Below, piece by piece: positions 8,723 through 57,177 of a DNA stretch of 64,000 nt. Position numbers and translations under genes: made by a program. The notes below the pieces were generated by a model. That model worked only from the letters and a program-made list of their open reading frames with translations. It did no database searches and was not told the origin of the DNA. The number at the start of each line of letters is the position of its first letter. Positions within the stretch are counted from its first letter, which is position 1. The stretch spans positions 13,421 through 77,420 of the forward strand of contig JABMNZ010000026.1 in assembly GCA_013204395.1 (NCBI GenBank), written 5' to 3'. Origin of the DNA: Parcubacteria group bacterium (GTDB lineage: Bacteria; Patescibacteriota; Patescibacteriia; UBA9934; GWF2-40-263).

Positions 8723-10252
8723 ATGGGAAAGATGCGTGCCGTTAGGGGAAAGAAGTTCCGTCTGACCGTCCCCGGGCATGGGATGCCTGAAGAAGTGAGG
8801 TCCCTCACTCAAGGACCCGTGCTCGCAAGGTTGATGTCAACCGATTCTGCATCGGTAGTTCTGATCGATGAGCTGATCAAGTCCATGCGTTTGCTCTCAT
8901 CGGACGTCTCGTCTGTACGCGAAGCTCTGCGACGATTTGTGGAGTCTGAGCACAAGGCAGGTGAGGGTTTCGACAAGACACTCTGTCGAGTGATTGAGCA
9001 GCTATCTGAGCGCTGGACTGAGCATGGGATCAGATCCGGAATCAGGACCCTGATCTATCTGGAGAGGCACGGTTTTGCCTACGAGACACTGGGTGAACAC
9101 CTGGAGTGCTTGCGTGGTATGACGGACGTCATCATCATCGCGATCGAAGAGGGGGCACAGTTTCCCCACACCTTGGCTGGGGCTTTCCCCCTTCTTCTGC
9201 AAACGAGGGGAGAGGAGTTCCTCGTTTTGGCGATTCACATGTTCGTTCACGCACTCTCTGAGGAAGAGGGGATGGTGTGTCTGGACTACGCTCCCAGAGG
9301 ACGAAGGGTCTTGAGCATTCCTGTGGTACCCAGTGTGATGATGATGTACTGGAGAGACATGTTCGAGATCTTCAGTCCGGAGTTCGACAGAAAGAAGGCC
9401 ATTGGGCTCCCGACCACACCGTTTGACACAGGGAAACTTATCCCTGATGGGTGGAGGTGCTTCAAGCGCATTGGTGAGCTGGACCTCAATCCAGATGAAC
9501 AAAAGCGGGTCATCGATCTGGGCGCCATTCGTTTGGTTCAAGTTCTGAGGGATCGTGAGCTCAGTGTGCGGACCATGCGTTTGGCACTTTTGGCGACTGT
9601 CTCAAACACAGAACTTCAGAAGCTTCTGGACAATACTCCCGAGTACATCAGGACCGTGAAGGTCTGGGAAGCTCTGGCGTGTCTGTGCTCGCTTGGCGAA
9701 TTCCACACACTCGGAGGAACCCAGGATGCGTGGGAGACTCATGTCGCCAAGAAGGAATCTGACCGAATGCTCCGCGCAGAGCAGGTAAGGCAGAAAGCCG
9801 AGGAAGAAGCTCGTCTTCGACAAGAGCGTCAGGCTGCCAATGCTCCCAACCCACAAAAACGCGGAAGTCGCGGGTACGCTCCGGGCAAGCCTGCAGAAGT
9901 GGACTTCGAGGCCCTGTGCTCCGAGCTCGACGTCTGTACGCAGTTTCCTGGAATGGATGGTGACATCACACGCATCATCCTGGTGCACGGCTTGCTTCGC
10001 GACGGTGAGCGACTGGCTTCACTAGCAAGTCTGCCCGAGCGCAACGAGAAGAAGCTCTGGGGCCAGTGCAAGACATTCTTGGGCGGTGGCACATCACGTC
10101 GCGAGTTCAAGGGTGCTCTCGGGAAGCTCGTATCTGCTCATCTGGTTTCCTTCTCCGGAGGCAGCTACCAGCTTGGCAAACCAAACCCGCGCTTCCCTCA
10201 GGCAAACGCGGTGCTCACACAGCTCCGCGGCCTGGTGAACAAGTACAGCTGA
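8723..10252 (+). CDS. hypothetical protein, member 2 of the paralogous family
   Basis: Conserved C-terminal domain (…FEALCSELDVCTQFPGMDGD…GGSYQLGKPNPRFPQAN…); charged coiled-coil-like linker before it as in other copies. Confidence 0.6.
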   Translation: MGKMRAVRGKKFRLTVPGHGMPEEVRSLTQGPVLARLMSTDSASVVLIDELIKSMRLLSSDVSSVREALRRFVESEHKAGEGFDKTLCRVIEQLSERWTEHGIRSGIRTLIYLERHGFAYETLGEHLECLRGMTDVIIIAIEEGAQFPHTLAGAFPLLLQTRGEEFLVLAIHMFVHALSEEEGMVCLDYAPRGRRVLSIPVVPSVMMMYWRDMFEIFSPEFDRKKAIGLPTTPFDTGKLIPDGWRCFKRIGELDLNPDEQKRVIDLGAIRLVQVLRDRELSVRTMRLALLATVSNTELQKLLDNTPEYIRTVKVWEALACLCSLGEFHTLGGTQDAWETHVAKKESDRMLRAEQVRQKAEEEARLRQERQAANAPNPQKRGSRGYAPGKPAEVDFEALCSELDVCTQFPGMDGDITRIILVHGLLRDGERLASLASLPERNEKKLWGQCKTFLGGGTSRREFKGALGKLVSAHLVSFSGGSYQLGKPNPRFPQANAVLTQLRGLVNKYS

Positions 10253-11879: not shown

Positions 11880-12728
11880 ATGGAATCCGTTCTTTTGACT
11901 CAGGGCAGTTGGAAGCGTCAGCGAGAGATCGTCGACGCTCTGGTGCTCGCATACGCAACACAGTTCTGGTGCGGGACCTGGAGAGAGCTGCTCGCGATTC
12001 GTGACGCCGACGGTTGCATCGAACAACAGTTCGGCACCTTCGATCAATACGGCAGCATCTACCCGGAGACACAACAGCTTCTGGAGCTCGCTGGTATTGG
12101 AGAGGATGATCCAAATTGGCCCAACAGGCTTTGGGCCCTGGCCGAATCTGGAGAGCTGAGGACGGTGGATGGCCGACTGGTCACGCCGTACTGGTCGCTG
12201 GATAGTGCAAGGCAGGAACTCCTCAGGTTCGTTACGTCAACGGATTCGGATGGGTACGGAGGCGAACTGCTGGTTCTCGTTGAGAGATCACAGATCGTGG
12301 GCTTCACGGCATACACATGCCTTCGTGACGCGGACGGACGTCAGGTCGCGGACAAGCGATTTCCTGTGGAGCGTCTGCACATTCCGATCGACAGTCCAGA
12401 GGCTACACAAATGTGTCTGGGGGAGTACCTGAAGAGTCAGTACGGTGAGTCACTGACCCTTGGGATCTTTCTCGATCACGCCGTCTCAGAAGTGTATCGC
12501 GGACAACGTCTGGGAAGCCGTCTGTTCGACGAGCGAATCACCCGACTGTTGGAGTTGGGTGCTGAGGTGATTCTCGGAAGAACCATCCTGACGTCCCCCA
12601 GGCAGTACCGTGGCAACTACCTCGCCCGAGGTCTTCGGCCATTTGCCGCTGACGGCACTGACGCCTTCAGCCTGTCCAAGCACTACTTCTGCACAGAAGT
12701 TTCCGAGCTCACTCCCCGAGCGAGCTGA
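11880..12728 (+). CDS. GNAT family acetyltransferase with N-terminal extra domain
   Basis: TAGGAGA RBS; C-terminal GNAT core …VYRGQRLGSRLF…; abrupt switch to high GC 9 nt after upstream stop. Confidence 0.55.
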   Translation: MESVLLTQGSWKRQREIVDALVLAYATQFWCGTWRELLAIRDADGCIEQQFGTFDQYGSIYPETQQLLELAGIGEDDPNWPNRLWALAESGELRTVDGRLVTPYWSLDSARQELLRFVTSTDSDGYGGELLVLVERSQIVGFTAYTCLRDADGRQVADKRFPVERLHIPIDSPEATQMCLGEYLKSQYGESLTLGIFLDHAVSEVYRGQRLGSRLFDERITRLLELGAEVILGRTILTSPRQYRGNYLARGLRPFAADGTDAFSLSKHYFCTEVSELTPRAS

Positions 12729-13331: not shown

Positions 13332-13363
13332 AAAATAAAAACCCACCCGCGTTAAAGGGTGGG
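13332..13363 (-). terminator. rho-independent terminator of nadE (minus strand)
   Basis: A-run then cccaccc-gcgttaaa-gggtggg hairpin immediately 3' of nadE stop. Confidence 0.7.
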
Positions 13364-13370
13364 TGGAAGC

Positions 13371-15401
13371 CTAGGTGGCCTCGAGTTCGGCGATCATGGC
13401 GTCCACTTCGTCGACGAAGACCTGAGGGTCGCCGTCGCTGGGCCAGCGCCACTTGTCGTGGGCGCCGAGCCCCAGGGATGCCACCAGCACGGAGTCCGGG
13501 CTGGCGTTCCTCTTGAACTGCGCGAAGTCAAACTTGATGTACCAGTCGCGCATCCACTTGAGAAGGAACGCTCGGTCGTAGATGACGTCGTCGTCCTTCT
13601 CCTTGCGACCAAAGGCTGTCTCAGCCAGGAAGGCCATGCGTCTGGGCTCGGCGCCCGTTCGCATCATATCGTGCATGTAGAAGTCCGTGACGGGGTAGGG
13701 CCCCATCTTGTCTTCAGAGGACTGGATCTCTTCTCCCTCTGCCACCTGCACCAGTTCTGGTGAGATGCGTCGGTTGACGATCCTCATGAGAACCTCTTTG
13801 AGAGGCTCTTCATGGGTCATGTACTCGATGTAGTACTGGACCAGGTACTGGACCAAGGTCTTGGGGATGTTGGCGATGACGTGGAAGTGCGACGACTGGT
13901 CGCCGCCTTCCGTGCACCACCCCTTGGCCGCTTCGCTCATGTCCCCGGTTCCCAGGTTGAATCCCAGGGTCTTGAGGACGAAGGTTCGGGCGCGGGCTTG
14001 GGCATTCTCGCACTGCGTGCACTTCCAGCACGGGTCGTGGCCAGCGGCCTTGAGTGCTGCTGTGGCCAACTCGGTGATGTCAGCCGTGTGAATTCCCGTA
14101 CCTAGTGCTCGGGCCAGGGTGAGCGAGTCGTCCTGTGACTCATCACCTGAGGCAGGGCCTGGAAGCCGGACGCTGGTGAAGAACTGTCGAGACCACCCAA
14201 GGCGGTCGTAGCTGTACACCGTCACCAGGTCAGCAAGACAAGAGTCGAGTCCTCCAGAGAGTCCCATAAATGTCTTGACGGGTTCTCCGTCTTTGCTGAG
14301 GTGCCACAGGCGACCGATGACTCCTTGACCGAGCCCGTTGAAGAGCTCTCTACCCACCTTCTCCATGGCCGTCGGGTCACTGGGGACAAACGGCAGGCGC
14401 TTGAGCTCACGGCGGAAGTCCTTGGTGTCAGGGAACCAGCTGCGCACTTCCGTGGTCACGAAGCGGTAGGGGAAGCGAGCGACACGTTGCGCCTGCCTCC
14501 AGCCATCGTCAGCGTTTCGGTCGTGCATCAGCTTGCCAATGTCGATGTCGCTCACCAACAGCTCGCTTTGGCCAGGCAACATCCAGCGCTTGCTGGACGC
14601 CAGGATGCGACCATCCTCGATGATCATCGAATGTCCATCCCACACCACCGACGAGGTGGAATCACCTGCCTGGATAGCGTAGATGTACACGCTCTTTTGA
14701 CGACCTGAGTTCGCCGGGAACAGCACTTCTCGCCACGTATCCTTGCCCAGCACCCAGTTGGATGCGGACAGATTCACAATGACGGTGGCACCGTTGTGAG
14801 CGTGGCGATCTGCTGGACTTGGCGTTTGCCATCCATCCTCGCAGATCTCGATCCCCATGGTGAACACGTCTTCATATCGTCTGTCGACAAACGGGATCAG
14901 AATGTCCGTCCCAATGGGAACAGGTGTGTCCTGCCACTCGAGCTTGACCTCGGTGGCTTGCAGGTCACACGCGGCGGAGAACCACTCGTTCTCCTGCCAC
15001 TCGCTGCGTCCAGCCAGGTAGCTCTTGGGAATGAACGCGATGACCTGTCCTTGAGAGACAACCGCCGCGACGTTGAACAGAGCGTCCAGTGCGAGGGGGA
15101 GTCCCAAGACAAACGTCGTTGCGATGTCAGCGGTTTTCAAGCAGAAAGTCTCAAGCGCTTCCAGGCAGGCGATCTGTAGACCGCGCTGACGGAAGGCATT
15201 GCGGCAGCCGTAGCCAGAGAGGCCCAGCTCAGGAAAAGCCATGAGCTGGATCTTCTCGGCGTCAGCCCGCAAGGCCATTTCCAGATGGCGCTTGAGGTTG
15301 ATGGCAACGCCCTTGGGCTTTGTCCAGAACGTGGCTGTTGCTACACGAGCAAAGCCGAAGCTGCTTGAACGACCGCGAGCGGTCTGTACTCGTTGGGTCA
15401 T
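13371..15401 (-). CDS. nadE: glutamine-dependent NAD+ synthetase (N-terminal nitrilase/CN-hydrolase domain + C-terminal NAD synthetase)
   Basis: 676 aa two-domain architecture (CEDGWQ catalytic Cys region; SGGLDS PP-loop); AAGGAG RBS; high GC. Confidence 0.85.
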   Translation of the reverse strand: MTQRVQTARGRSSSFGFARVATATFWTKPKGVAINLKRHLEMALRADAEKIQLMAFPELGLSGYGCRNAFRQRGLQIACLEALETFCLKTADIATTFVLGLPLALDALFNVAAVVSQGQVIAFIPKSYLAGRSEWQENEWFSAACDLQATEVKLEWQDTPVPIGTDILIPFVDRRYEDVFTMGIEICEDGWQTPSPADRHAHNGATVIVNLSASNWVLGKDTWREVLFPANSGRQKSVYIYAIQAGDSTSSVVWDGHSMIIEDGRILASSKRWMLPGQSELLVSDIDIGKLMHDRNADDGWRQAQRVARFPYRFVTTEVRSWFPDTKDFRRELKRLPFVPSDPTAMEKVGRELFNGLGQGVIGRLWHLSKDGEPVKTFMGLSGGLDSCLADLVTVYSYDRLGWSRQFFTSVRLPGPASGDESQDDSLTLARALGTGIHTADITELATAALKAAGHDPCWKCTQCENAQARARTFVLKTLGFNLGTGDMSEAAKGWCTEGGDQSSHFHVIANIPKTLVQYLVQYYIEYMTHEEPLKEVLMRIVNRRISPELVQVAEGEEIQSSEDKMGPYPVTDFYMHDMMRTGAEPRRMAFLAETAFGRKEKDDDVIYDRAFLLKWMRDWYIKFDFAQFKRNASPDSVLVASLGLGAHDKWRWPSDGDPQVFVDEVDAMIAELEAT

Positions 15402-15504
15402 GGCGTCTCCTTAGGTCCAGTTAAACGTGAGGGCATGATCAGAGATTTGATCGAGCTCTCGCGTAAAAGCTCGTGCGTACCACGAGCGGGTGGGGACCTG
15501 AGGG

Positions 15505-16155
15505 TCAGGTCATTTCGTAGGACTTGTTGGAGTTGCGATCTCCGGCCGACGCGGCCTGCGGACGCTTTGCTTCGGCCAGCTGCTGCTTCAAGCGTTCGGC
15601 TCGCAGCCACTGGGCGAAGGCGAAGGTGCGCACGCCGTCGTGGATGGTGGTTGGATCGCAGAACACGCTGATGGGCATCCACAGACGGCTGATGTCCTCA
15701 CCTTCATTGGGATTGCCAAGGCCGGTGTCAGGGCCAGTCACCTTTGCTGTGTCGATCCTTGCCACGCTCAGGAAGGCGCGCTCGGTGAGGATGCCAGCGG
15801 ACAGGCTCATGGAGCGCCCACCATTGAGGACGACGACTGCGTCTTCCGTCATGGCCGCACCAGCTTCTTCCGAAGCTTCCTTTACCGCCAAAGCCTTGGG
15901 GCCGAGGTCGACATCAAAGCGCCCGGCGACCGTTTCGATTTCGACACCCGTGGGGTTGTCATCGCGCATTTGCGTCAGGTGCATCTGTGAGATGAGGAGA
16001 ACGCGGTCTCCTTCCAGATCAATCAGCAGGCAGCTGACAGAGTCGGTCACGCGGACCACTTCTCGAGTGTTTCCGCCGCTGTCCAACCAGGATTCCACTT
16101 GGCAGAAGCCGTCGTGGAAGGTGGCCTCATGTGAGGGGGCTGAGGGTTCTGACAT
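15505..16155 (-). CDS. Nudix hydrolase (possible ADP-ribose pyrophosphatase)
   Basis: GGAGGTGA RBS before internal ATG at 16155; Nudix box-like …GPKALAVKEASEEAGA…; longer ORF to 16392 rejected. Confidence 0.5.
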   Translation of the reverse strand: MSEPSAPSHEATFHDGFCQVESWLDSGGNTREVVRVTDSVSCLLIDLEGDRVLLISQMHLTQMRDDNPTGVEIETVAGRFDVDLGPKALAVKEASEEAGAAMTEDAVVVLNGGRSMSLSAGILTERAFLSVARIDTAKVTGPDTGLGNPNEGEDISRLWMPISVFCDPTTIHDGVRTFAFAQWLRAERLKQQLAEAKRPQAASAGDRNSNKSYEMT

Positions 16156-16261
16156 GGTCACCTCCTTAGATACTCTATCTGCTAAGCCGCCGAGCATCGG
16201 CAACTTGGTAAATAGGGCGAGGGTACTTGGTGGGTACCAAGGCCTCGCCGCGTTGTTGGAC

Positions 16262-17563
16262 TCAGACCCTCTGGGCGTGGAAGTAGTCCACATCGTAGTC
16301 GAACACCCGCTTGAGGCGTTCGATGAATTCCGGGTCACCGATCGCCTTGGCGATGTTGTCGGTGAGCTTGCCGGTGGGGTACCAGATGCCATCAGTTCCG
16401 GTTTTGGCGAACCAGGGCTTGATCACCACCGAGCAGGTCGGAAGACCCAGGTCGTTGGTGAGGTTGGTGCCCCAGCCAAAGGAGGTCTTGACCTGGTTCA
16501 GGAACTTGCTGGCCAGCTCGCACATCAATTTGAGGTCCAGGCCGTCGGAGAAGATGACCATCTTGGATCGAGGGTCGATCCCGAGTGCCTTGTAGAAGGC
16601 GATCATCTTGAAGCAGTAGTCCTTGGGGTCTCCCGAGTCCTGACGGGTACCCTTCCAGTTGCGCGCCATCTCCTGCGTGAAGTCACGGAGGAAGGCGTCG
16701 GTGCCGAAGGTGTCGGTCAGTGCGATGGAGAGACCTTCACCGAAGGAATTCCACCACAGATCGAGCAGCTGACGCTGGACGCCAGCCAGGGCGGCATCAG
16801 GATCCTCAGCGGCCATACACAGTGCGGCCATGACCATGACGAGCTGGTGGGCGTTGGTGCCCATGGGAAGCAGAGAGAAGTTCATAGCTGCCTCCACGTT
16901 GGAGGTGCCAAGGAACTGCTCGGGGAGCTCTTCGGCCATTCGCTGATCGATGTACCGCTGCCAGGCACGGTGGAAGCGACGACGTGTACCGAAGTCGCAG
17001 AACATCAGGTACGGGTGGTACTTACGAAGGAATGCGATCTTCTCGTGAAGCCGGCTGACACCTTGAGCCATGGTGGCTTCTCGATCCATGCGAGACATGG
17101 CACGCAGGGCGTTGCGCGAGCGCATGCCGTTGATGAGCGACAGGGCAGGGACTTCCCAGTGCATGCCCCGACCCCAGTTCCCACCAAACGTCAGATCGAA
17201 CTGCCCATCCACAACACTCAGGTGGTAGCCCGGACGCTGTAGGTCGCGGAGATGATCTACGTACGAGGCGGAGAACATGCGTTCTCCGTACTCGTCCGTG
17301 CCCTTGATGTAGTGCAACTCCGAGCGCTGGAAGCGTTGGGCCTGGAGCTTGTCGAGCTCATCACCGAGGTCGTCGACATCGATCTCATCCGCCAGGCGAA
17401 CGTCTGCCGTCCTGTTGGTCAGGCCGTACCTGACCTCCACGTCCGGGAACTCTGTGTGGATCACACGTCCCATGGTGAAGGTGTAGAAGTCGTCGTCGAG
17501 CATTCCGCCGACCAATGGGCCGTCGAGAATCTCATCGATCAGGTTGCCAAAGGGTGCTGACAT
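16262..17563 (-). CDS. pncB: nicotinate phosphoribosyltransferase
   Basis: DFGTRRRF, LPMGTNAH, IALTDT…DAFLRDF, RQDSGDP, FSDGLDL motifs match PncB throughout; GGAGGA RBS. Confidence 0.85.
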   Translation of the reverse strand: MSAPFGNLIDEILDGPLVGGMLDDDFYTFTMGRVIHTEFPDVEVRYGLTNRTADVRLADEIDVDDLGDELDKLQAQRFQRSELHYIKGTDEYGERMFSASYVDHLRDLQRPGYHLSVVDGQFDLTFGGNWGRGMHWEVPALSLINGMRSRNALRAMSRMDREATMAQGVSRLHEKIAFLRKYHPYLMFCDFGTRRRFHRAWQRYIDQRMAEELPEQFLGTSNVEAAMNFSLLPMGTNAHQLVMVMAALCMAAEDPDAALAGVQRQLLDLWWNSFGEGLSIALTDTFGTDAFLRDFTQEMARNWKGTRQDSGDPKDYCFKMIAFYKALGIDPRSKMVIFSDGLDLKLMCELASKFLNQVKTSFGWGTNLTNDLGLPTCSVVIKPWFAKTGTDGIWYPTGKLTDNIAKAIGDPEFIERLKRVFDYDVDYFHAQRV

Positions 17564-17615
17564 GTCTGTCCTCCAAGTAGGTGCAGGTCCTCACGACGTT
17601 TATCGTCGTGGGGAG

Positions 17616-17648
17616 AAATCTGGTCTCGAGTTGCTCGAGCTCAGGTTT
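17616..17648. repeat. 33-bp imperfect palindrome AAATCTGGTCTC-N9-GAGCTCAGGTTT, copy 1 (upstream of pncB)
   Basis: Second copy at 19209..19241 with identical 12-nt arms and different 9-nt centre. Confidence 0.7.
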
Positions 17649-17707
17649 CTTTTTTTAAATAGGTCGCGCCGCCCAGGAGAGAAGCTCCAGGACGGGCGAC
17701 AGAGGGA

Positions 17708-19156
17708 TCACGTGGGGAAGTAGAGTCCACGGATCTTGGCAGCGAGGTTGGTCTCTGGGAAGAACCCGAGGGTCGCCGCGTGGGTGCGCGAGAGGCGCAT
17801 GGAGACGCGGATCACGTCCTCCATGCGGACACGACCGTTGAGCAGGAGCTGCATCGGTCGCTTGCGGGTCGTCTCGATGTCGACGGTGACTTCGTCCTCT
17901 GCGCTCAAGCGGGCGAAGTTCCATCGTTGACCGCGGTAGGTGGTTCCTGCGCCTACGAGGATCATCTCTGGGGTACCGGCCGTCAGGGGCATGCCACCGT
18001 GAGAGCGAGCCCATCCTGTGGAACCCGCTGCTGTGGCGAGCATGAGGCCGTCGCCGGAGAGGCGATCGAAGACGAGGTTTCCGTTGAGGTACACCCGCAT
18101 GGCTCCGCTCTGTACGGATGTGCCATTGCTGACGGCGCGGATGAAAGCCTCGTTGAAGGCGAGCTCCTTGATCTGCCGACCATTGGAGTCTATAGCCGAG
18201 ACTTCCAGCAGCGGTTGCTGGTACAGGTGCACCACTCCGCGTTTCAGACGCGCTTCCAGCTCCGTAATGGTTCCGCCGTTGAGAAGGAAACCTACGGTGC
18301 CAGCGTTGAGTCCGATGGACGGGCGAGGGTCACCAGGGTTTTCTTGGACACAGTCCAGAAAGTATCCATCCCCACCGATGACGATCTTGTGGGTGAGGAG
18401 ACGATCGCTCAGGCCGTTCACTCGGTCCATCATGAGGCCAAGGGCTGTTTCCCGATCGCTGCGTTCAGGATCTGTGCTGCAAGCCACCATGACTTGCGCT
18501 CGGCCCTTCAGCGTGGCGCGGACCGGACCCAGGGCGACGCGGCTGGTGTACAGGCCGTACATGCACATGTAGGCCGCGACGCCCGGAGAGACGAGGTGCT
18601 CGAACTCTTCGTATAGGGCCGCGTTCTCGCGAATCGCCCTGCTGGAAGCTCCACGTGAGAGCCAGTTGTCGAGGAGCTCAGAGTTCGGTGGAAGATCCGC
18701 TTTGTCGAAGTGGACACCTGCTCGTGGAATCACGAGGAACTTGGCGTGGGCCCAGAGCCTCTGACCTTGGTGCCAGTTCTTCTGGATCTCACTTTCCTGG
18801 TCAGCGCCACCAACGATGAGATCACCACCGACCACCAGCCAGACATCATGCCCCTGACTCGTGAGTCGATCGAGTACACAAGCGGACCGTTCGTACTCGT
18901 CACGCTCAAGATCGCTGAGATCCAGGGTGATGCGCGAGTCGCGAGCCTCAAAGGCGATGCGGCACAGGTTGGCGCGATGCAAAGGACTGACGTCCTGTGT
19001 GCTTTCCTTGTCCGGTCGACCTCCACAAGGGATGATCAACAGACGGTCAGCTGAAGTCATGTGGTCCAGAATGATGTCCGCGATGCTCTCGTGATGACGT
19101 CCCGGGGGGTTGAAACTCCCTCCCAAGAAGAATGTACGTCCTTCGGGTTTCTTCAT
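17708..19156 (-). CDS. fusion protein: nicotinate/nicotinamide mononucleotide adenylyltransferase (N-term) + NAD kinase (C-term)
   Basis: N-term GGSFNPPGRHH (H/TxGH) and SSRAIRE (SxTxxR) nucleotidyltransferase motifs; C-term GGDGYFL, NEAFI, DGLMLATAAGSTGWARSHGG NAD-kinase motifs; GGAGGAG RBS before ATG 19156. Confidence 0.7.
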   Translation of the reverse strand: MKKPEGRTFFLGGSFNPPGRHHESIADIILDHMTSADRLLIIPCGGRPDKESTQDVSPLHRANLCRIAFEARDSRITLDLSDLERDEYERSACVLDRLTSQGHDVWLVVGGDLIVGGADQESEIQKNWHQGQRLWAHAKFLVIPRAGVHFDKADLPPNSELLDNWLSRGASSRAIRENAALYEEFEHLVSPGVAAYMCMYGLYTSRVALGPVRATLKGRAQVMVACSTDPERSDRETALGLMMDRVNGLSDRLLTHKIVIGGDGYFLDCVQENPGDPRPSIGLNAGTVGFLLNGGTITELEARLKRGVVHLYQQPLLEVSAIDSNGRQIKELAFNEAFIRAVSNGTSVQSGAMRVYLNGNLVFDRLSGDGLMLATAAGSTGWARSHGGMPLTAGTPEMILVGAGTTYRGQRWNFARLSAEDEVTVDIETTRKRPMQLLLNGRVRMEDVIRVSMRLSRTHAATLGFFPETNLAAKIRGLYFPT

Positions 19157-19208
19157 GATCTCCTCCAAGGGAATGAGTGAGTCTCCATGAACGATTGCTC
19201 CTGGAGTA

Positions 19209-19241
19209 AAATCTGGTCTCAAGCGATTTGAGCTCAGGTTT
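19209..19241. repeat. 33-bp imperfect palindrome, copy 2 (upstream of nadD::nadK)
   Basis: AAATCTGGTCTC-aagcgattt-GAGCTCAGGTTT. Confidence 0.7.
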
Positions 19242-19308
19242 AGAAAAGGGGAGGGTGTCGAGGGGTGCTCGACGACCCGTCCCCGAGATTGTGTGGGTGT
19301 GTTCGTGC

Positions 19309-20130
19309 TCAGCCCACGACGAACTGGCTGGTGTGGGAGAACTTGACGCCGGCGGCCTGCAGCCTAGCGAAGATGGCCAGACGATCTTCCTGAGAGATGA
19401 ACGCCAGGAAGCCGATGGAGTCCATGACCATGTACACCTCGATGCCGAAGCGCGAGAGGTTCAGAGCGGTCAGCATGATGCAGACTTCCAGGGCGTTGCC
19501 ACCGAGGAAGACCCGGCGAACCATCTGGGGTCGCGCGGCGATGCACTCCATCACACCGACCGGGTTGCCCACCGCATCCCAGATTCCGCTGTGGGAGTAG
19601 TGGAGGGGGTGCGTTCCCTTGTAGAAGATGTTGGAGAACAGTCTCGGGAAGATCGGGGTGATGAAGAGGGTCTCGAAGGTACCGATCAAGGCATGCTGCG
19701 CCCAGATGACCTGATCGCTTCCGGTGAACATCCGCGTCAGGCGCGCGTGATGGAGTAGGCTTCCCAAGGAGAACTGCGCGTAGGGCTGCAGGATGTGTTG
19801 CTCACCGATGCGCATCCAGCCTTGGATCAACTCCTCGGTGAGGAGGGTGTGGTTGGGGATGACGCCCGCCACTTCGGTGTAGGCATCGTGACCGTGAGCA
19901 CTGCCTGGGACATGCGCGTCGCACACGGCCAGGCAGTTCTCGCGTTCCATGAGGGTCATGACGTTGAGGCTGTTCAAGGCTGCCTCGAGAGACCCTTCCA
20001 CTGGCAGGGTGCCATCGAGACCAAAGGCGCCCGTGTCGTCGACACTCAGCCAGATGTCCTGGCCGGGGGTGATGTCTACTGGTCCTTTGACCAAGAGATG
20101 GTCTGGGGTAACGGAAAGGGCGGTGGGCAT
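19309..20130 (-). CDS. pncA: nicotinamidase/isochorismatase-family hydrolase
   Basis: N-term …WLSVDDTGAFGLDGTLPV… (D of triad) and …VFLGGNALEVCIMLTALN… catalytic Cys motif; AGGAG RBS. Confidence 0.7.
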   Translation of the reverse strand: MPTALSVTPDHLLVKGPVDITPGQDIWLSVDDTGAFGLDGTLPVEGSLEAALNSLNVMTLMERENCLAVCDAHVPGSAHGHDAYTEVAGVIPNHTLLTEELIQGWMRIGEQHILQPYAQFSLGSLLHHARLTRMFTGSDQVIWAQHALIGTFETLFITPIFPRLFSNIFYKGTHPLHYSHSGIWDAVGNPVGVMECIAARPQMVRRVFLGGNALEVCIMLTALNLSRFGIEVYMVMDSIGFLAFISQEDRLAIFARLQAAGVKFSHTSQFVVG

Positions 20131-20228
20131 TCAAGACTCCTGGGTGAAAGTACTTGCGGCGGTCGCAAGCGTAATCACACTATTTTTAGTGAAATTACGT
20201 CTGTGGCCACATCTCTCAACAAGGCGAG

Positions 20229-20257
20229 AGAATAGTTAATTTTGACGGTTTTGTCAA
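20229..20257 (-). promoter_or_regulatory. sigma70 promoter TTGACA-N17-TATTCT on minus strand, ~95 nt upstream of pncA
   Basis: Perfect -35, 17-nt spacer. Confidence 0.55.
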
Positions 20258-20530
20258 TGATTTATGGATGGATATGAAATGAATTTTTTTACGTGTAAAC
20301 CTCCGTGGGTACGACACATGCACGTAATTGCTATGAGTTAAGTTTTTATCATTTTGTCGGGAGCGCGCTCGGGTCTAGGCTCAAAAGGTCTAAACCCGAG
20401 CCGCTCTCTCTTTCCAGCATCGTACGCTGGGGTGCGGGGAGAGAGGGTCATCCCGCACCTTAGGGTATGATGATGTAGATACTACACTAAGTCTTGGTAG
20501 TGTTTAGGCGGGGAATGATCCCCGCCTATT

Positions 20531-21226
20531 TTATACAACTTGTACGTAGACAAGTTTTCTTTCTTTGAATCGATAGAGGGCTGCTGGCCTATGGGCTTGG
20601 CCGGATCGTTTATGACCGGTGGCCTGGATCAGGTGGAGTTCATTAATTCGTTTTCTGAAGTTTCTTTTATCAAGATCTTGATCCATGACGATCTCGTATA
20701 CACGTTGGAGCTCTGTGAGAGTGAATTCTTTTGCAAGCAGACTCCAGGCGATGTTGGTGTATTGGATTTTTGTTTTTACGCGCTCCAATGTGGTCTGCAC
20801 GATCGTCTTGTGATCGTAAGCCAGGGGAGGGAGCTTGCTCACAGGCCACCACTTAACGTCCAGGTATTTTTCACTGGTCTTTAGTGAGGCATGTTCATCT
20901 GGAACAAGAGCGACATGGGCAATAGAAATGACTCGTCCTGCTGGGTCGCGGTCTGGTTCATCAAACGTCATAAGTTGCTCAAGGTATACCTGAGTGAGTC
21001 CGGTCGATTCTTTCAAGATTCTGCTCGCAGCCTGTTCGCTGGTCTCTTCTTCTTCAAGAAGCCCACCAGGTAATGCCCATTGCCCCTCAAACGGTTGCTT
21101 CTTCATTTGAATGAGCAAGACATGAAGTTCATCATCTTGAATAGAAAGAATGCACGTATCAACCGCGGCTTTAATATTCTGTGGTGATGAGTGATGCTTA
21201 ATCATATTGGTGTGTATTGTACACAA
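20531..21226 (-). CDS. nrtR: NrtR-type regulator: Nudix (ADP-ribose-binding) domain + C-terminal winged-helix
   Basis: Nudix box GQWALPGGLLEEEETSEQAASRILKESTG; C-terminal FTLTELQRVYEIVMDQDLDKRNFRKRINEL… resembles NrtR wHTH; low GC. Confidence 0.6.
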   Translation of the reverse strand: MCTIHTNMIKHHSSPQNIKAAVDTCILSIQDDELHVLLIQMKKQPFEGQWALPGGLLEEEETSEQAASRILKESTGLTQVYLEQLMTFDEPDRDPAGRVISIAHVALVPDEHASLKTSEKYLDVKWWPVSKLPPLAYDHKTIVQTTLERVKTKIQYTNIAWSLLAKEFTLTELQRVYEIVMDQDLDKRNFRKRINELHLIQATGHKRSGQAHRPAALYRFKERKLVYVQVV

Positions 21227-21273
21227 ACTATGGTGGATGTCAAGTCAAAAGAAAGACGCTATACTTTTGAGGT

Positions 21274-22254
21274 ATGAAATTGGAAAGGATTAGCTCTATT
21301 TCTTGGGAAGAGATCTGGCGGCGATGGCGCGCAGACGAAGAAGAAGTCTGGCGAGATCACTATCAAGAAAAGGGACATGATAATTGGGAGAGCTGGCGCG
21401 GTGCGTCCGTGAATAAACATCATCCTGAAACCTGGTCATGGACTTTGTATGCGGCTGATGAGTTTCTCGTCGATGTGCCCGACATGTTTGTGGGGACATT
21501 CCCCGGGTGGAGAACATTTTTTTCAGATCGGGAGCATTCTCGGTTTAAGGACATAGCCGTCTATCCAGGCTTTCTTGGTGGTCAGACTCATGAGAAGATC
21601 GAGTCTATTTTAGAAGACTTCCCGAGAGACATTCAACTCGTGGGAGTAAGATTCGGTGAGGAGATAATGATTCTTGAGTGTACCCACAGATCGACGGCCA
21701 TAGCGGTGGCTGTTAGTGAAGGGAGGGAACTAGAGGCAAAAGTGACCATTGCTTTAACAGAACTTACGCAGAAGCAGTGGAACCAATATTGCAGAAAGTT
21801 TATGTGCATTTCATCCCCCGTGTTTAATCACCAGTCGCTCATTCCATCGCTCTACACCTGTGACGGTGACAATGTAAGTCCACCGCTGGTGTTTAAAGAC
21901 GTCCCGGAGGGTGCGGTTTCATTGGCTCTAATTATCGAAGATCCAGATATACCCGCCTATATCAGAGAGGATGGCATGTGGAACCATTGGGTGGTTTGGA
22001 ACATTTCTCCAGACAGATTGGGAATTGAAGAAGCAGAGGAATCCCCTGGGGTTGTGGGTCTTTCAACACGTGAGGTGAACAAGTATGGTGGGCCCTGCCC
22101 TCCAGATCGAGAACATAGATACTTTTTCTATCTGTATGCCTTGGACTCGATGCTTGAGTTACCTGTAGCTTCTACAAAAGAAGACTTGCTTGGTGCCATG
22201 GAGGGGCATGTGATCGAGCGGGCGGAATTAATGGGTCGCTACGAGCGAAAATAA
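21274..22254 (+). CDS. two-domain protein with C-terminal YbhB/YbcL (PEBP) family domain
   Basis: …LALIIEDPDIPA…WNHWVVWNI…GPCPPDREHRYFFYLYALD… PEBP signature. Confidence 0.6.
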   Translation: MKLERISSISWEEIWRRWRADEEEVWRDHYQEKGHDNWESWRGASVNKHHPETWSWTLYAADEFLVDVPDMFVGTFPGWRTFFSDREHSRFKDIAVYPGFLGGQTHEKIESILEDFPRDIQLVGVRFGEEIMILECTHRSTAIAVAVSEGRELEAKVTIALTELTQKQWNQYCRKFMCISSPVFNHQSLIPSLYTCDGDNVSPPLVFKDVPEGAVSLALIIEDPDIPAYIREDGMWNHWVVWNISPDRLGIEEAEESPGVVGLSTREVNKYGGPCPPDREHRYFFYLYALDSMLELPVASTKEDLLGAMEGHVIERAELMGRYERK

Positions 22255-23420: not shown

Positions 23421-24281
23421 ATGTTCAAGAAGTTTCTGGGAATCATGACGGTCGTGATCTTTGCGATCGGAATGCTGATCGTGTCGATCCCCGAACTGCT
23501 CTGTCGCAGAATGCTGAATGCACTCAAACGTGCAGATGAAGACGTCCGAAGTCACACCGAACGTCGGTGGCAGGCTGTCTGGGCCAGACGGTACTGGTGG
23601 CTGATCAAGGCCATCATGGGCATGGAGATGACGCCGAAGTTTCTGGGTCCGCCCCAGACAACTGGTGGGCCGTACATTTACCTACTCAACCACCGATGTG
23701 TCCTGGATCACTTCCTTGGCCAAATGGTGATTGACGCTCAATTTGTTCACGACAGCTTTTGGGTGATCAAGGAAGCTATGGCGCGAGCTCCAGGAATGGG
23801 GCGATCCATGGCGACGGCCGGGTACGCGCTGGTCAAGCGTGGCGGTCAGGATCCTGAAGGGGACATTGAGCGCATCTGCGAGATGGCCAGGCGTGCCAAG
23901 CTCATCGGGGCGTCAGTGGTGATCTACGCAGAGGGAACGCGTTACGATTACCTGGAGCGGTCGCTCAGAGGACAGCGAAGCGACTTCGATCCCCATTTGG
24001 CCAACCCAAGGACAGCTGGCTTCAATGCCCTGTGTAGCGAGCTTCCAGATTACCGCGTGAAGGTGGTGTGTCTGGACTGGGCTGGCATGGAAGGGGGACG
24101 CACTCTCTGGGATGGCAGGGCCTTCGTTGGTCTTCATGGCAGTGTCCATGTCTGGGAAGAGGAGAATCCTGGAGCAGACGGCGCAGCCAACTTCCTACAC
24201 GCGATGTGGCAGCGCATGCACGACACCATGAGCGGCAAAGACGGACTGTCCTTGCGCGTGGTCAGCAACACAGGAGCCTGA
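23421..24281 (+). CDS. lysophospholipid (1-acyl-sn-glycerol-3-phosphate) acyltransferase family
   Basis: NHRCVLDH (HX4D) and YAEGTR (FPEGTR) motifs; GGGAGG RBS; high GC. Confidence 0.7.
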   Translation: MFKKFLGIMTVVIFAIGMLIVSIPELLCRRMLNALKRADEDVRSHTERRWQAVWARRYWWLIKAIMGMEMTPKFLGPPQTTGGPYIYLLNHRCVLDHFLGQMVIDAQFVHDSFWVIKEAMARAPGMGRSMATAGYALVKRGGQDPEGDIERICEMARRAKLIGASVVIYAEGTRYDYLERSLRGQRSDFDPHLANPRTAGFNALCSELPDYRVKVVCLDWAGMEGGRTLWDGRAFVGLHGSVHVWEEENPGADGAANFLHAMWQRMHDTMSGKDGLSLRVVSNTGA

Positions 24282-32155: not shown

Positions 32156-33094
32156 TTACGGGACAAGTGCCCGTGCAACACGTGTAAGCGTTGCTCGTCC
32201 TTCCAGACAGTCTCGCCATTGACGTGGGACGGCACCTGGACCGAGTGTGGCCCCGAGGATGGCGCCAGCCATCGAGCCGGTCGAGTCACTGTCACCTGAG
32301 TGGTTGACGGCGAAGCGGACTCCTTCCAGGTAGTCCGTGGGGAAGCACCTTGCTGCGTAGATGCCCATTGCCAATGCGTCGTCCGCATCCCAACCGCTGC
32401 CTATATTGTCCATGTTGCGACGTTCGTTTGCGCCAACAGGGAGATCCAGTACAGATGTTGTGATTGGAAGAGTGCTTCTTCCGATCCTGTTGATCAAGAG
32501 CCTCATGACAGCCAGGCCCTCATCGAGAGTCGAGCCATCACACAGGGAGCTGATCAGAGCGGCCATGGCCCCGCCGGCTGTGACAGCTTCGGACCCTCCG
32601 TGCGTCAAGACACTGACTTCCATGCCGATTCGGAATGCCTCGTCTGGTTTTCCCGCGAAGGCGATGCCGACGGGGTGTACACGCATAACGGATCCACAGC
32701 TGTCTGAGTTGTTCAGTGGATCCTTGAGGGTTCCACTGCGCTGTCCGCTCAGTGAGCCCATAGACGTGCCACCAGGAGATCGGTTCTCCCGTGGGTCTGA
32801 CTGAGTCAGATGCCAGCGCTTGAGTTCGTTCCAGACTCGTCCGCGAATGGATTCGGTAGAATTCCCATCCAGAGCTGAGAGGATCAATCCTTCGGCAACG
32901 GCGTGTGCCTGCTGAGTATCATCGGTGATGACACCTGGCGGCAGTCGGAATGCAGGTTGTAGATCCTGGACTCCGTTTGGTCCATATCGTTTGAGGATCT
33001 CTGCATGGCTAATGAATTCGACGGCGGCACCCAAGGAATCACCTCCAGCCCCGCCAAGCATGCATCCAATAGCACGATCAATGGTAGTCAACAT
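32156..33094 (-). CDS. ADP-ribosylglycohydrolase family protein
   Basis: N-terminal AIGCMLGGAGGDSLGAAVEF (ARH/DraG family Gly-rich motif); AAGGAGGA RBS; high GC. Confidence 0.75.
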   Translation of the reverse strand: MLTTIDRAIGCMLGGAGGDSLGAAVEFISHAEILKRYGPNGVQDLQPAFRLPPGVITDDTQQAHAVAEGLILSALDGNSTESIRGRVWNELKRWHLTQSDPRENRSPGGTSMGSLSGQRSGTLKDPLNNSDSCGSVMRVHPVGIAFAGKPDEAFRIGMEVSVLTHGGSEAVTAGGAMAALISSLCDGSTLDEGLAVMRLLINRIGRSTLPITTSVLDLPVGANERRNMDNIGSGWDADDALAMGIYAARCFPTDYLEGVRFAVNHSGDSDSTGSMAGAILGATLGPGAVPRQWRDCLEGRATLTRVARALVP

Positions 33095-57097: not shown

Positions 57098-57177
57098 CGC
57101 GTGCACGAATGAAACCATTGACAAAACTATAAAAATATGGAAATATATTGCACGCAACATTGGAATTGGAGACCCAC

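What the first reader, a model, noticed from the sequence alone, without database searches (positions are those of the whole stretch)
13371..20130. Complete, horizontally acquired NAD salvage and synthesis cassette
On the minus strand, all high-GC and in order: pncA (nicotinamidase), then nadD::nadK, then pncB (nicotinate phosphoribosyltransferase), then a Nudix hydrolase, then a glutamine-dependent two-domain nadE. Together these give nicotinamide to nicotinate to NaMN to NaAD to NAD to NADP in one block. The block is expressed from a consensus TTGACA-N17-TATTCT promoter at 20229..20257. Organisms with reduced genomes usually lack de novo NAD synthesis. An imported salvage module, presumably host-derived, would make nicotinamide scavenging possible. 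The high-GC ADP-ribosylglycohydrolase at 32156..33094 and two further Nudix genes fit an ADP-ribose/NAD-turnover theme.
Basis: partly seen in the sequence, partly recalled or inferred. Interest (0 to 1): 0.7.

Follow-up and report, generated by a model that had tools for sequence, protein, structure and literature searches.

The report
NrtR-controlled NAD salvage operon in Parcubacteria
This is a real five-gene operon that turns nicotinamide into NAD and NADP, but it is an ordinary NrtR-regulated NAD operon that related candidate-phyla-radiation (CPR) bacteria carry at the same locus, not a recent import from a host.

Summary
Five intact minus-strand genes lie in the stated order: a divergent nicotinamidase, a NadD::NadK fusion, PncB, an ADP-ribose-pyrophosphatase-like Nudix, and a glutamine-dependent NadE. 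GC is about 0.60 against about 0.45 in the flanks. A TTGACA-N17-TATTCT promoter and a strong terminator bound the block.

The horizontal-acquisition reading is not supported. The window comes from a Parcubacteria (CPR) MAG. The same cassette sits between the same flanking genes (nrtR, dtd) in relatives whose fusion protein is 70%, 73% and 43% identical. It is GC-rich relative to those flanks in all of them. NadE's nearest relatives (58-73% identity) include Uhrbacteria proteins. The fusion falls in a clade of cassette-linked fusions that includes a named Uhrbacteria locus and the window's syntenic relatives. No tRNA, mobility gene, flanking repeat, or phage or plasmid match marks the borders. 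Two genes (nadDK, nadE) do show allele replacement between related lineages.

The "Nudix" gene directly upstream is NrtR, and two 21-bp palindromic NrtR boxes (core GT-N7-AC) flank it. This is therefore a classical NrtR regulon.

Two features are unusual. The NadD::NadK fusion is widespread, and I found no paper describing it. The gene-specific GC mosaic is conserved across species and remains unexplained.

The parts
21207..21227 (.). NrtR box 1 (autoregulatory). A 21-bp palindrome, TTTGTGTACAATACACACCAA on the minus strand, overlapping the -10 of the nrtR promoter.
   Evidence: PWM score 24.0, the best in the window. The same position is occupied in L002, L004, L008, L026, L046 and others. 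The core GT-N7-AC matches the published NrtR motif.
21216..21243 (-). nrtR promoter, TTGACA-N16-TACAAT.
   Evidence: 11 of 12 consensus matches. Conserved in L002 and L004.
20531..21205 (-). nrtR: a Nudix-related, ADP-ribose-responsive transcriptional repressor (224 aa).
   Evidence: PF21906 NrtR_WHD 6.8e-25 plus NUDIX 6.4e-17. NF050029 1e-43, below its cutoff. Full-length match to PDB 3gz5 (6e-36) and AraR 5bs6 (9e-41).
20505..20528 (-). Intrinsic terminator-like hairpin after nrtR. It is a palindrome; the tool scored its T-run on the + strand, and a terminator role for nrtR is inferred.
   Evidence: 10-bp stem with 7 GC pairs. An equivalent hairpin follows nrtR in L085, L002 and L004.
20470..20490 (.). 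NrtR box 2 (cassette-proximal), TTAGTGTAGTATCTACATCAT on the minus strand. It may overlap a weak promoter, TAAACA-N16-TAGTAT.
   Evidence: PWM score 18.3. A box sits immediately after the nrtR terminator in most nrtR-bearing loci and in none of the five nrtR-less loci scanned.
20229..20257 (-).
   Evidence: 10 of 12 matches. The ATTGACAAAACC -35 and 17-nt spacing are conserved in L085, L002 and L004, and the motif is typical of the lineage.
20131..20224 (-). Structured 5' leader: a long hairpin that partly pairs with the ribosome-binding site.
   Evidence: MFE -30.4 kcal/mol, z = -3.7. 9 of 26 pairs show compensatory change, but in only 3 sequences. No Rfam match.
19309..20130 (-). Divergent nicotinamidase (PncA-like, 273 aa) with a poorly modelled middle region (about residues 72-190) that is longer than the corresponding segment of canonical PncA.
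   Evidence: Invariant D31, D71/H73/H79, H146, K171 and C217. PDB 29iv 7e-8. AF2 pTM 0.70, and the top Foldseek hits are nicotinamidases. Only 10 homologues were found.
19209..19241 (-). 33-nt hairpin element, AAACCTGAGCTC-N9-GAGACCAGATTT, copy 1, in the pncA|nadDK spacer.
   Evidence: Exactly two copies in the window against 0 expected by chance. Conserved in L085 with compensatory changes in the stem.
17708..19156 (-). NadD::NadK fusion: N-terminal NaMN adenylyltransferase (about residues 1-205, with a GxHH motif) and C-terminal NAD kinase (GGDG at 261-264).
   Evidence: AF2 pLDDT 90.5, pTM 0.90. Foldseek against PDB covers only the NAD kinase half.
17616..17648 (-). 33-nt hairpin element, copy 2, in the nadDK|pncB spacer.
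16262..17563 (-). pncB: nicotinate phosphoribosyltransferase (433 aa).
   Evidence: TIGR01514 293.6 bits, above the 269.55 cutoff. PF04095 1e-51 and PF17767 1e-17. PDB 1ybe 1.8e-84.
15505..16155 (-). Nudix hydrolase resembling ADP-ribose pyrophosphatase (216 aa).
   Evidence: TIGR00052 1.8e-7 and NF008003 1e-5, both below cutoff. Best PDB hits are ADP-ribose pyrophosphatases at E about 0.01. The KEAxEE part of the Nudix box and an EGE loop are conserved in cassette homologues.
13371..15401 (-). nadE: glutamine-dependent NAD synthetase (676 aa, CN-hydrolase plus synthetase domains).
   Evidence: NF002730 523.5 bits, above the 473 cutoff. PDB 3dla 2.4e-92, full length.
13341..13364 (-). Intrinsic terminator closing the operon.
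   Evidence: 8-bp stem with 6 GC pairs, followed by TTTTTATTTT. Identical in L085.
32156..33094 (-). ADP-ribosylglycohydrolase. Thematically linked as a producer of ADP-ribose, but no NrtR box lies nearby.
   Evidence: PF03747 1e-60. No box scoring above 13 outside the nrtR flanks. In relative L087 an ADP-ribosylglycohydrolase sits inside the nrtR-pncA cluster.

Best explanation
The block is an NrtR-controlled operon for NAD(P) salvage and synthesis in a Parcubacteria (CPR) genome. It has been maintained at this locus since before the sampled relatives diverged.

**Pathway (inferred from family assignments).**
1. PncA-like deamidates nicotinamide to nicotinate.
2. PncB makes NaMN from nicotinate and PRPP.
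3. The N-terminal domain of the fusion adenylylates NaMN to NaAD.
4. The two-domain NadE amidates NaAD to NAD, using glutamine.
5. The C-terminal NAD kinase domain of the fusion phosphorylates NAD to NADP.

**Regulation (inferred by analogy with characterised NrtR proteins).**
- NrtR binds two 21-bp palindromes that flank its own gene. It represses itself and the operon.
- ADP-ribose, released when NAD is consumed, removes NrtR from the DNA and induces salvage.
- The co-transcribed Nudix enzyme would hydrolyse ADP-ribose to AMP and ribose-5-phosphate. That returns pentose towards PRPP for PncB and destroys the inducer, giving negative feedback.

**What the high GC is.** It is not the mark of a recent foreign import. 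It is a gene-specific property shared by the orthologues in related genomes. These genes also evolve faster at the protein level. At least nadDK and nadE have been replaced by alleles from related lineages.
For: **Gene identities.**

**Host lineage.** The exact fusion and NadE proteins are NCBI NQV89624.1 and NQV89621.1, labelled Parcubacteria group bacterium.

**NrtR and its operators.**
- NrtR is identified.
- The window has only two strong boxes, and both flank nrtR.
- The same motif occupies the same two positions in about 15 nrtR-bearing loci. It is absent from the five nrtR-less loci scanned.
- The motif fits the published description: a 21-bp palindrome with core GT-N7-AC (PMC2330246).
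- NrtR operons combining pncA, pncB, nadD and nadE are published for Clostridium acetobutylicum and Pseudomonas.

**Synteny.** The order nrtR, pncA-like, nadDK, pncB, (radical SAM), Nudix, nadE, dtd is found in L085/L086 and L002/L003. L004 has a variant of the cassette, with nrtR and the other upstream flanking genes conserved.

**Affinity with the backbone lineage.** NadE and the fusion tree.

**Purifying selection.** dN/dS is 0.17-0.34 for the cassette genes.

**Transcription-unit boundaries.** Promoter and terminator.
Against: - NrtR box 2 lies 213 bp upstream of the strong promoter in this genome, about 110 bp upstream in L002 and about 24 bp in L004. Simple steric repression of that promoter is therefore not obvious. 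A weak promoter overlapping the box (8 of 12 matches) is only a guess.
- Every intergenic spacer is 100-150 nt long and carries a GC hairpin followed by a short T run. The genes may not be transcribed in strictly equal amounts as one unit.
- The NadD, NadK, PncA and Nudix assignments score below curated HMM cutoffs.
- The NadD domain carries GxHH in place of the catalytic HxGH motif.
- Neither a niacin transporter nor Prs is seen in the window.
- Polarised synonymous changes in the GC-rich genes are biased GC to AT, 60:12 and 54:16. That is what an ancient GC-rich import still being ameliorated would also show.
Confidence: 0.78

Rival explanations
1. The cassette is a recently imported genomic island from a GC-rich organism, presumably the host (for example Actinomyces or Schaalia), and gives a reduced genome the ability to salvage nicotinamide.
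For: The 6.8-kb block has GC of about 0.60 in a window averaging about 0.47. The composition changes sharply at both ends, at nrtR and dtd.
Against: - The same cassette, flanks and GC contrast are present in L085, L002 and L004, with fusion identities of 70%, 74% and 45%.
- NadE's top tier (58-73% identity) includes Uhrbacteria-labelled proteins, and no Actinobacteria-labelled protein appears among the named hits in the top 120.
- The fusion clusters with cassette-linked fusions from syntenic relatives and a named Uhrbacteria locus in a rough tree.
- dS for pncA, pncB and the Nudix between the window and L085 is 0.31-0.53, within the range of the flanks (0.05-0.69).
- There is no tRNA, no integrase or transposase among the neighbours, no flanking direct repeats, and no phage or plasmid match.
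- Other single GC-rich genes are scattered through the window, and their orthologues in relatives are also GC-rich.
Confidence: 0.04
2. An ancient import. The cassette entered an ancestor of this Parcubacteria group from a GC-rich donor. It has since been inherited vertically while slowly losing GC, with occasional exchange of cassette alleles between related CPR lineages.
For: - Polarised synonymous substitutions in GC-rich genes run 60:12 and 54:16 in the GC to AT direction on the two terminal branches. In GC-poor genes the counts are 26:9 and 12:12.
- nadDK and nadE have dS of 1.28 and 1.10 against 0.05-0.69 for neighbouring genes.
- The window's nadDK is closer to L002's (74%) than to L085's (70%), although the flanks say the opposite.
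- NadE of L002 is only about 40% identical to the window's.
- L004 carries a different PncB type.
- NadD::NadK fusions also occur in Verrucomicrobia, Planctomycetes and Acidobacteria.
Against: - At 43-45% protein identity between cassette orthologues, synonymous sites are saturated, so an imported GC signal should have decayed.
- GC-rich single genes with no link to NAD show the same conserved pattern, which would need many parallel imports.
- Some cassette-bearing relatives are uniformly GC-rich at 0.60-0.67 (L042, L050, L060, L073). High GC could therefore be ancestral to the whole genome rather than foreign.
- Parsimony polarisation with a GC-rich outgroup overestimates GC to AT changes.
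Confidence: 0.15
3. The fusion is not a NadD plus NadK pair working in the Preiss-Handler order. Either its adenylyltransferase domain acts on NMN, so that the fused domains catalyse consecutive steps (NMN to NAD to NADP), or it is catalytically impaired and serves as a nucleotide-binding regulatory domain of the kinase.
For: - The catalytic HxGH motif is replaced by GxHH in all 22 family members.
- NadD and NadK steps are not consecutive in the Preiss-Handler route.
- In Verrucomicrobia, Planctomycetes and Acidobacteria the fusion stands alone, with no NAD genes nearby.
- The high pTM (0.90) suggests a fixed arrangement of the two domains.
Against: - The N-terminal domain aligns over its full length with bacterial NadD structures (5db4 5e-10; profile against 1kam 1.4e-20). 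It keeps the GGxFxP and SSxxxR motifs.
- No other NadD candidate is present in the cassette, yet PncB and a NaAD-amidating NadE are there and need one.
- In loci where only the N-terminal half matched, a NadD-like gene occupies the same cassette position.
Confidence: 0.15

Closest known systems
[quoted passage not shown] 2008, PMC2330246
   Same: - The regulator is a Nudix plus winged-helix protein.
- Its operators are 21-bp palindromes with core GT-N7-AC.
- One box autoregulates nrtR and one lies upstream of the NAD genes.
- The gene content covers salvage route I plus the universal NadD and NadE steps.
   Different: - NadD is fused to NAD kinase, so NADP synthesis is included.
- An ADP-ribose-pyrophosphatase-like Nudix is part of the operon.
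- The PncA is highly divergent, with a longer middle region.
- The cassette-proximal box lies 213 bp upstream of the strong promoter.
- The host is a CPR bacterium, a group not covered in the 2008 study.
Stand-alone NadD::NadK fusion proteins of Verrucomicrobia, Planctomycetes and Acidobacteria, annotated only as NAD(+)/NADH kinase
   Same: They share the two-domain architecture, the GxHH motif and the GGDG kinase motifs. Identity to the window protein is 26-37% over the full length.
   Different: Those genes have no NAD genes or nrtR nearby, and they form a separate cluster in the rough tree. I found no paper describing either form.
NadM-Nudix bifunctional enzyme (Synechocystis slr0787; PDB 2qjt) and NadR
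   Same: These are precedents for NAD-pathway enzymes fused to a second NAD-related activity, and for an ADP-ribose pyrophosphatase being tied to the NrtR circuit.
   Different: The adenylyltransferase family differs (NadM or NadR, not NadD), the fusion partner differs (Nudix or ribosylnicotinamide kinase, not NAD kinase), and here the Nudix is a separate gene.
680-residue glutamine-dependent NAD synthetase (PDB 3dla; Mycobacterium tuberculosis according to my recollection, not stated in the tool output)
   Same: Full-length match at 2.4e-92, with an N-terminal CN-hydrolase glutaminase and a C-terminal synthetase. It is the same NF002730 family.
   Different: It is only a distant sequence relative. 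The close relatives (58-73%) are CPR-type metagenomic proteins.
Compositional genomic island, a classical sign of horizontal transfer
   Same: A contiguous block with GC about 15 points above its flanks.
   Different: There are no mobility genes, no tRNA and no flanking repeats. The block and its composition are conserved at the same locus in diverged relatives, and the nearest enzyme relatives tested are from the same lineage.

Membership tests
NrtR regulon | The regulator has an N-terminal Nudix-like domain and a C-terminal NrtR-type winged-helix domain. | tested here: met
   PF00293 6.4e-17 plus PF21906 6.8e-25. Full-length match to PDB 3gz5 and 5bs6. NF050029 scores 149.5 bits, below its equivalog cutoff of 400.
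NrtR regulon | 21-bp palindromic operators with core GT-N7-AC lie upstream of the target genes. | tested here: met
   Boxes at 21207-21227 and 20470-20490. The motif recurs at the same positions in about 15 nrtR loci and is absent from the five nrtR-less loci scanned. The definition comes from PMC2330246.
NrtR regulon | The operator overlaps the promoter, or lies between the promoter and the start codon of the target. | tested here: inconclusive
   Met for nrtR itself, where the box overlaps the -10. For the cassette, the box is 213 bp upstream of the strong promoter and overlaps only a weak candidate (8 of 12).
NrtR regulon | DNA binding is relieved by ADP-ribose. | not testable with these tools
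   Needs a gel-shift assay with purified protein.
Preiss-Handler / salvage I pathway | PncB, nicotinate phosphoribosyltransferase. | tested here: met
   TIGR01514 293.6, above the 269.55 cutoff. Both Pfam domains are present. PDB 1ybe 1.8e-84.
Preiss-Handler / salvage I pathway | Nicotinamidase with an Asp-Lys-Cys triad and a D-x-H...H metal site. | tested here: met
   D31, K171, C217, D71, H73, H79 and H146 are invariant in 10 homologues. Fold hits are nicotinamidases. HMM scores are below cutoff and there is no Pfam hit, so substrate specificity remains inferred.
Preiss-Handler / salvage I pathway | NadD with the (H/T)xGH and SxxxxR nucleotidyltransferase motifs. | tested here: inconclusive
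   The domain aligns over its full length with NadD structures. The SSRAIR motif is present, but HxGH is replaced by GxHH. TIGR00482 scores 72.5, below the 112.45 cutoff.
Preiss-Handler / salvage I pathway | Glutamine-dependent NadE with glutaminase and synthetase domains. | tested here: met
   NF002730 523.5, above the 473 cutoff. PF00795 plus PF02540. PDB 3dla 2.4e-92.
NAD kinase | GGDG motif, NxGxxGFL motif, glycine-rich GSTxY-type motif, and the NAD kinase fold. | tested here: met
   GGDG at 261-264, plus NAGTVGFL and AAGSTGW, are invariant or nearly invariant. The profile hits NAD kinase structures at 8e-24. Foldseek TM-score to target is 0.76-0.80. All NCBIfam scores are below their equivalog cutoffs.
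ADP-ribose pyrophosphatase (Nudix, YffH/AdpP group) | Canonical Nudix box Gx5Ex7REUxEExGU. | tested here: inconclusive
   The box reads GRFDVDLGPKALAVKEASEEAGA. The first Glu is Leu and the Arg is Lys, while the EE pair and an EGE loop are conserved. HMM hits are below cutoff.
Horizontally acquired genomic island | Atypical base composition. | tested here: met
   GC 0.60 against about 0.45. GC3 0.69-0.82 against 0.25-0.50.
Horizontally acquired genomic island | Absent from, or at a different locus in, close relatives. | tested here: not met
   The same locus and flanks are found in L085/L086, L002/L003 and L004.
Horizontally acquired genomic island | Mobility signatures at the borders (tRNA, integrase, direct repeats). 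| tested here: not met
   No tRNA. No mobility domains in the neighbours. No flanking repeats. No phage or plasmid matches.
Horizontally acquired genomic island | The genes group phylogenetically with a foreign lineage. | tested here: not met
   NadE's top tier includes Uhrbacteria-labelled proteins. The fusion clusters with cassette-linked fusions from syntenic relatives and a named Uhrbacteria locus in a rough tree. PncB, PncA and the Nudix were tested only against the fetched loci.

The most novel reading that the evidence does not exclude
Two readings remain open.

1. The NadD::NadK protein may belong to a widespread but uncharacterised family of bifunctional enzymes. There are at least 590 relatives among bacterial species representatives. 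They occur in Verrucomicrobia, Planctomycetes and Acidobacteria, and in named CPR genomes as part of NrtR cassettes. The family carries a rearranged catalytic motif (GxHH instead of HxGH) and a rigid two-domain architecture. It could couple or co-regulate NAD and NADP synthesis in a way not yet described.

2. The cassette's persistently high GC, shared by orthologues across species, may reflect gene-specific mutation or fixation bias rather than foreign origin. One example would be slower GC loss in a normally repressed operon.
Probability: 0.4. Interest if true: 0.5.

Novelty: new variant of a known kind. Interest (0 to 1): 0.3.

Why it matters
The cassette shows that some Parcubacteria keep a complete, regulated route from nicotinamide to NAD and NADP. 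That is useful for metabolic models of CPR bacteria, which are usually assumed to depend on partners for cofactors. It also serves as a caution: a sharp GC island in these genomes is not evidence of recent transfer, because the same mosaic is conserved across diverged relatives. The NadD::NadK fusion is common in several phyla, yet I found no description of it in the searchable literature. A short biochemical study could therefore annotate hundreds of genomes.

Tried and rejected
- **Rfam.** A whole-window scan at gathering thresholds and a permissive scan of 20050-21300 found no riboswitch or known leader.
- **Literature.** Searches for a NadD-NadK fusion and for NAD salvage in CPR or Parcubacteria returned nothing relevant. 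One search was a syntax error.
- **Exact lookup.** Looking up the 504-aa ORF failed because the true start is the ATG that gives 482 aa.
- **Metagenome scan.** The scan for PncA-like relatives gave only three short contigs, two of them from Hainich groundwater. That is too few to test covariation in the leader.
- **AlphaFold-database fold search.** The library was unavailable.
- **ADP-ribosylglycohydrolase in the regulon.** I looked for an NrtR box near the gene at 32156-33094. None scored above 13, so I do not include it in the regulon.
- **Leader hairpin as a third NrtR box.** Rejected, because it lacks the GT-N7-AC core.
- **GC contrast as a strand effect.** Rejected, because GC-rich genes occur on both strands.
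- **MAG labels.** "Uncultured Gammaproteobacteria" labels on several cassette-bearing MAGs could not be verified. Their NrtR identities (47-58%) interleave with those of named CPR genomes (52-60%), so I treat the labels as uncertain.

Full report
**What is in the sequence**

Between 13371 and 20130 the minus strand carries five consecutive, non-overlapping ORFs.
- **PncB and NadE.** Profile searches assign pncB (16262-17563) and a two-domain glutamine-dependent nadE (13371-15401) above curated cutoffs: TIGR01514 at 293.6 against 269.55, and NF002730 at 523.5 against 473. Both have full-length matches to solved structures: 1ybe at 1.8e-84 and 3dla at 2.4e-92.
- **The fusion.** The ORF at 17708-19156 is a genuine fusion.
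  - Its first ~205 residues align end to end with bacterial NadD structures. Residues ~230-480 match NAD kinases and carry the GGDG, NAGTVGFL and GSTGW motifs.
  - The AlphaFold model is confident (pLDDT 90.5, pTM 0.90). No PDB chain covers both halves.
- **PncA-like.**
  - The first gene (19309-20130) has no Pfam hit.
  - It keeps the nicotinamidase Asp-Lys-Cys triad and the D-x-H...H metal site, all invariant in its ten known homologues.
  - It matches a nicotinamidase sequence in PDB at 7e-8.
  - Its model's best fold matches are all nicotinamidases.
- **Nudix.** The 216-aa protein (15505-16155) resembles ADP-ribose pyrophosphatases only weakly, and its Nudix box is partly degenerate.
- **Composition and signals.** GC is ~0.60 across the block, and GC3 is 0.69-0.82, against 0.25-0.50 for most other genes. 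The promoter TTGACA-N17-TATTCT at 20257..20229 is confirmed, and a strong terminator lies at 13364..13341.

Two starts need small corrections: the fusion begins at the ATG at 19156, and the Nudix gene begins at 16155.

- **The regulator.** The gene immediately upstream (20531-21205, minus strand) is not just another Nudix hydrolase. It is NrtR, the Nudix-related repressor of NAD metabolism: PF21906 at 6.8e-25, with a full-length match to structure 3gz5.
- **The motif.** Comparison with related loci revealed a 21-bp palindrome, consensus TTAGTGTA-N5-TACACTAA.
  - It occurs directly upstream of nrtR and directly after nrtR's terminator in about fifteen nrtR-bearing loci. It is absent from the five nrtR-less loci scanned.
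  - A weight matrix built from these sites finds only two strong matches in the 64-kb window. They are at 21207-21227 (score 24.0, overlapping the nrtR -10) and 20470-20490 (score 18.3). The next best score is 12.6.
  - The motif fits the published NrtR description: a 21-bp palindrome with core GT-N7-AC (PMC2330246).

**Origin of the cassette**

The exact fusion and NadE proteins are in NCBI as NQV89624.1 and NQV89621.1, from a Parcubacteria group MAG.
- **Conserved locus.**
  - Relatives were recovered by exact-protein lookup. They carry the same cassette between the same neighbours: acyltransferase, a 119-aa protein and nrtR on one side, and dtd and a Trp-repressor-like gene on the other.
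  - L085/L086 are close relatives (NrtR 97% identical). L002/L003 are more distant (NrtR 79%). L004 is distant (NrtR 67%, fusion 45%).
  - L004 carries a variant cassette. Only its upstream flank could be compared, because the cassette runs to the end of that locus.
- **Shared GC contrast.** In all of these relatives the cassette genes have GC3 of 0.68-0.94, while nrtR, dtd and other flanking genes have 0.45-0.60. A weaker version of the contrast is seen in L008, L026 and the Uhrbacteria locus L045.
- **Nearest relatives.**
  - NadE's closest relatives (58-73% identity) include two proteins labelled Candidatus Uhrbacteria. Identity then falls to 40% or less, and no Actinobacteria-labelled protein appears among the named hits in the top 120, most of which are unnamed.
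  - A rough neighbour-joining tree places the window's fusion with cassette-linked fusions from the syntenic relatives and a named Uhrbacteria locus. The stand-alone fusions of Verrucomicrobia, Planctomycetes and Acidobacteria fall elsewhere.
- **No island signatures.** There is no tRNA, no mobility gene, no flanking direct repeat, and no phage or plasmid match.

The "host-derived" idea also assumed a Saccharibacteria-like biology that does not apply to this organism.

**What the composition does reflect**

- **Faster protein evolution.**
  - Between the window and L085, GC3 correlates with protein divergence: Spearman 0.77 with dN (p = 0.003). It does not correlate with dS.
  - pncA, pncB and the Nudix have dS of 0.31-0.53, within the range of their flanks (0.05-0.69). 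Their dN is several-fold higher.
- **Allele replacement.** nadDK and nadE have dS of 1.28 and 1.10. The window's nadDK is closer to that of the more distant L002 than to that of L085. L002's NadE is only about 40% identical, and L004 uses a different PncB type. Individual cassette genes have thus been replaced by alleles from related lineages. This is horizontal exchange within the group, not import of the cassette.
- **Direction of change.**
  - Polarised synonymous changes in the GC-rich genes run strongly GC to AT, 60:12 and 54:16. Several cassette-bearing relatives are uniformly GC-rich.
  - This fits an ancestral or ancient high GC that decays at gene-specific rates. It cannot exclude an ancient import. 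The parsimony test is also biased by the GC-rich outgroup.
  - I regard the mosaic as real and unexplained.

**How the cassette most likely works**

- **Shown.** The gene identities, the operon boundaries, and the presence of NrtR and its operators.
- **Inferred, pathway.**
  - Nicotinamide is converted to nicotinate (PncA-like) and then to NaMN (PncB).
  - NaMN goes to NaAD (fusion N-domain) and then to NAD (NadE, using glutamine).
  - NAD is phosphorylated to NADP (fusion C-domain).
- **Inferred, regulation.**
  - NrtR represses itself and the operon. ADP-ribose from NAD consumption relieves repression, as shown for other NrtR proteins.
  - The co-transcribed Nudix enzyme removes ADP-ribose, which recycles ribose-5-phosphate and gives negative feedback.
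  - An ADP-ribosylglycohydrolase at 32156-33094 fits the theme. In relative L087 such a gene sits inside the nrtR cluster. It has no NrtR box here.
- **Uncertain.**
  - The cassette-proximal box lies 213 bp upstream of the strong promoter. The distance is about 110 bp in L002 and about 24 bp in L004. The box may instead overlap a weaker promoter.
  - The spacers between genes are 100-150 nt long, and each carries a GC hairpin with a short T run.
  - The NadD domain has GxHH where HxGH is expected.

**Comparison with what is known**

The block is a member of the well-described class of NrtR regulons for salvage I plus the universal pathway. It differs in four ways:
- NadD is fused to NadK.
- A Nudix gene is part of the operon.
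- The nicotinamidase is very divergent.
- The host is a CPR bacterium.

The fusion itself is not rare. The genome scan found at least 590 relatives among species representatives. I found no paper describing it, and NCBI names it simply NAD(+)/NADH kinase.

**Verdict**

- The pathway interpretation is supported.
- The horizontal-acquisition interpretation is not supported.
- The cassette is a new variant of a known kind and is of modest interest.
- The most interesting leftovers are the uncharacterised NadD::NadK family and the conserved gene-specific GC mosaic.

Noticed in passing
window 19209-19241 and 17616-17648 (minus strand): A 33-nt imperfect hairpin, AAACCTGAGCTC-N9-GAGACCAGATTT, occurs exactly twice in the window (0 expected by chance). 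The copies lie in the pncA|nadDK and nadDK|pncB spacers, each just after a terminator-like GC hairpin. In L085 the inner stem changes with compensatory substitutions. Its function is unknown; it could be a processing site, an attenuator or a protein-binding site.
   Followed up: partly
window 20131-20224 (minus strand): The ~95-nt 5' leader of pncA folds into a long hairpin (-30.4 kcal/mol, z = -3.7) that partly pairs with the ribosome-binding site. 9 of 26 pairs change compensatorily across the window, L085 and L002. There is no Rfam match. Three sequences are too few to call it a conserved RNA element.
   Followed up: partly
whole window; L002, L004, L085: GC3 varies by gene from 0.25 to 0.84, and the pattern is conserved between orthologues in diverged relatives. 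GC-rich genes evolve faster at the protein level. They also show a GC to AT excess in polarised synonymous changes. Other GC-rich genes are at 4585-5574, 8723-10252, 11880-12728, 23421-24281, 26480-27208 and 57148-57597.
   Followed up: partly
window 17708-19156; alignment A1: In all 22 NadD::NadK fusion proteins, the nucleotidyltransferase signature HxGH is replaced by GxHH (G19, H21 and H22 invariant).
   Followed up: partly
window 20258 and 57117; L002, L004, L046, L060, L080: ATTGACAAAACC is a recurrent extended -35 element at promoter-like sites in these genomes. It suggests a lineage-specific promoter signature.
   Followed up: no
window 21203-21243 (minus strand): The nrtR ATG at 21205 lies only about 4 nt downstream of the transcription start predicted from the TTGACA-N16-TACAAT promoter. 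The nrtR mRNA may therefore be nearly leaderless.
   Followed up: no
L004 11703-20542; L002 12991-14061; L046 13731-14681: Relatives extend the cassette with a radical-SAM gene. L004 also adds a nucleoside hydrolase, a PRPP synthetase, several unknown proteins and a different (542-aa) PncB type. The cassette appears to be a hot spot for gene gain and replacement.
   Followed up: partly
L087 2698-6693: A related contig carries nrtR, a PncA-like gene, a 311-aa unknown gene and an ADP-ribosylglycohydrolase in one cluster. This links ADP-ribose release directly to the NrtR locus.
   Followed up: no
window 20367-20475 (minus strand): Two GC-rich hairpins lie between NrtR box 2 and the TTGACA promoter. 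One is conserved, with compensatory changes, in L002. They account for the variable distance between box and promoter among relatives.
   Followed up: no
L008, L026, L042, L044, L050, L077, L080: MAGs deposited as "uncultured Gammaproteobacteria" carry the same nrtR cassette and the same NrtR boxes as the named CPR genomes. Their taxonomic labels may be unreliable.
   Followed up: no
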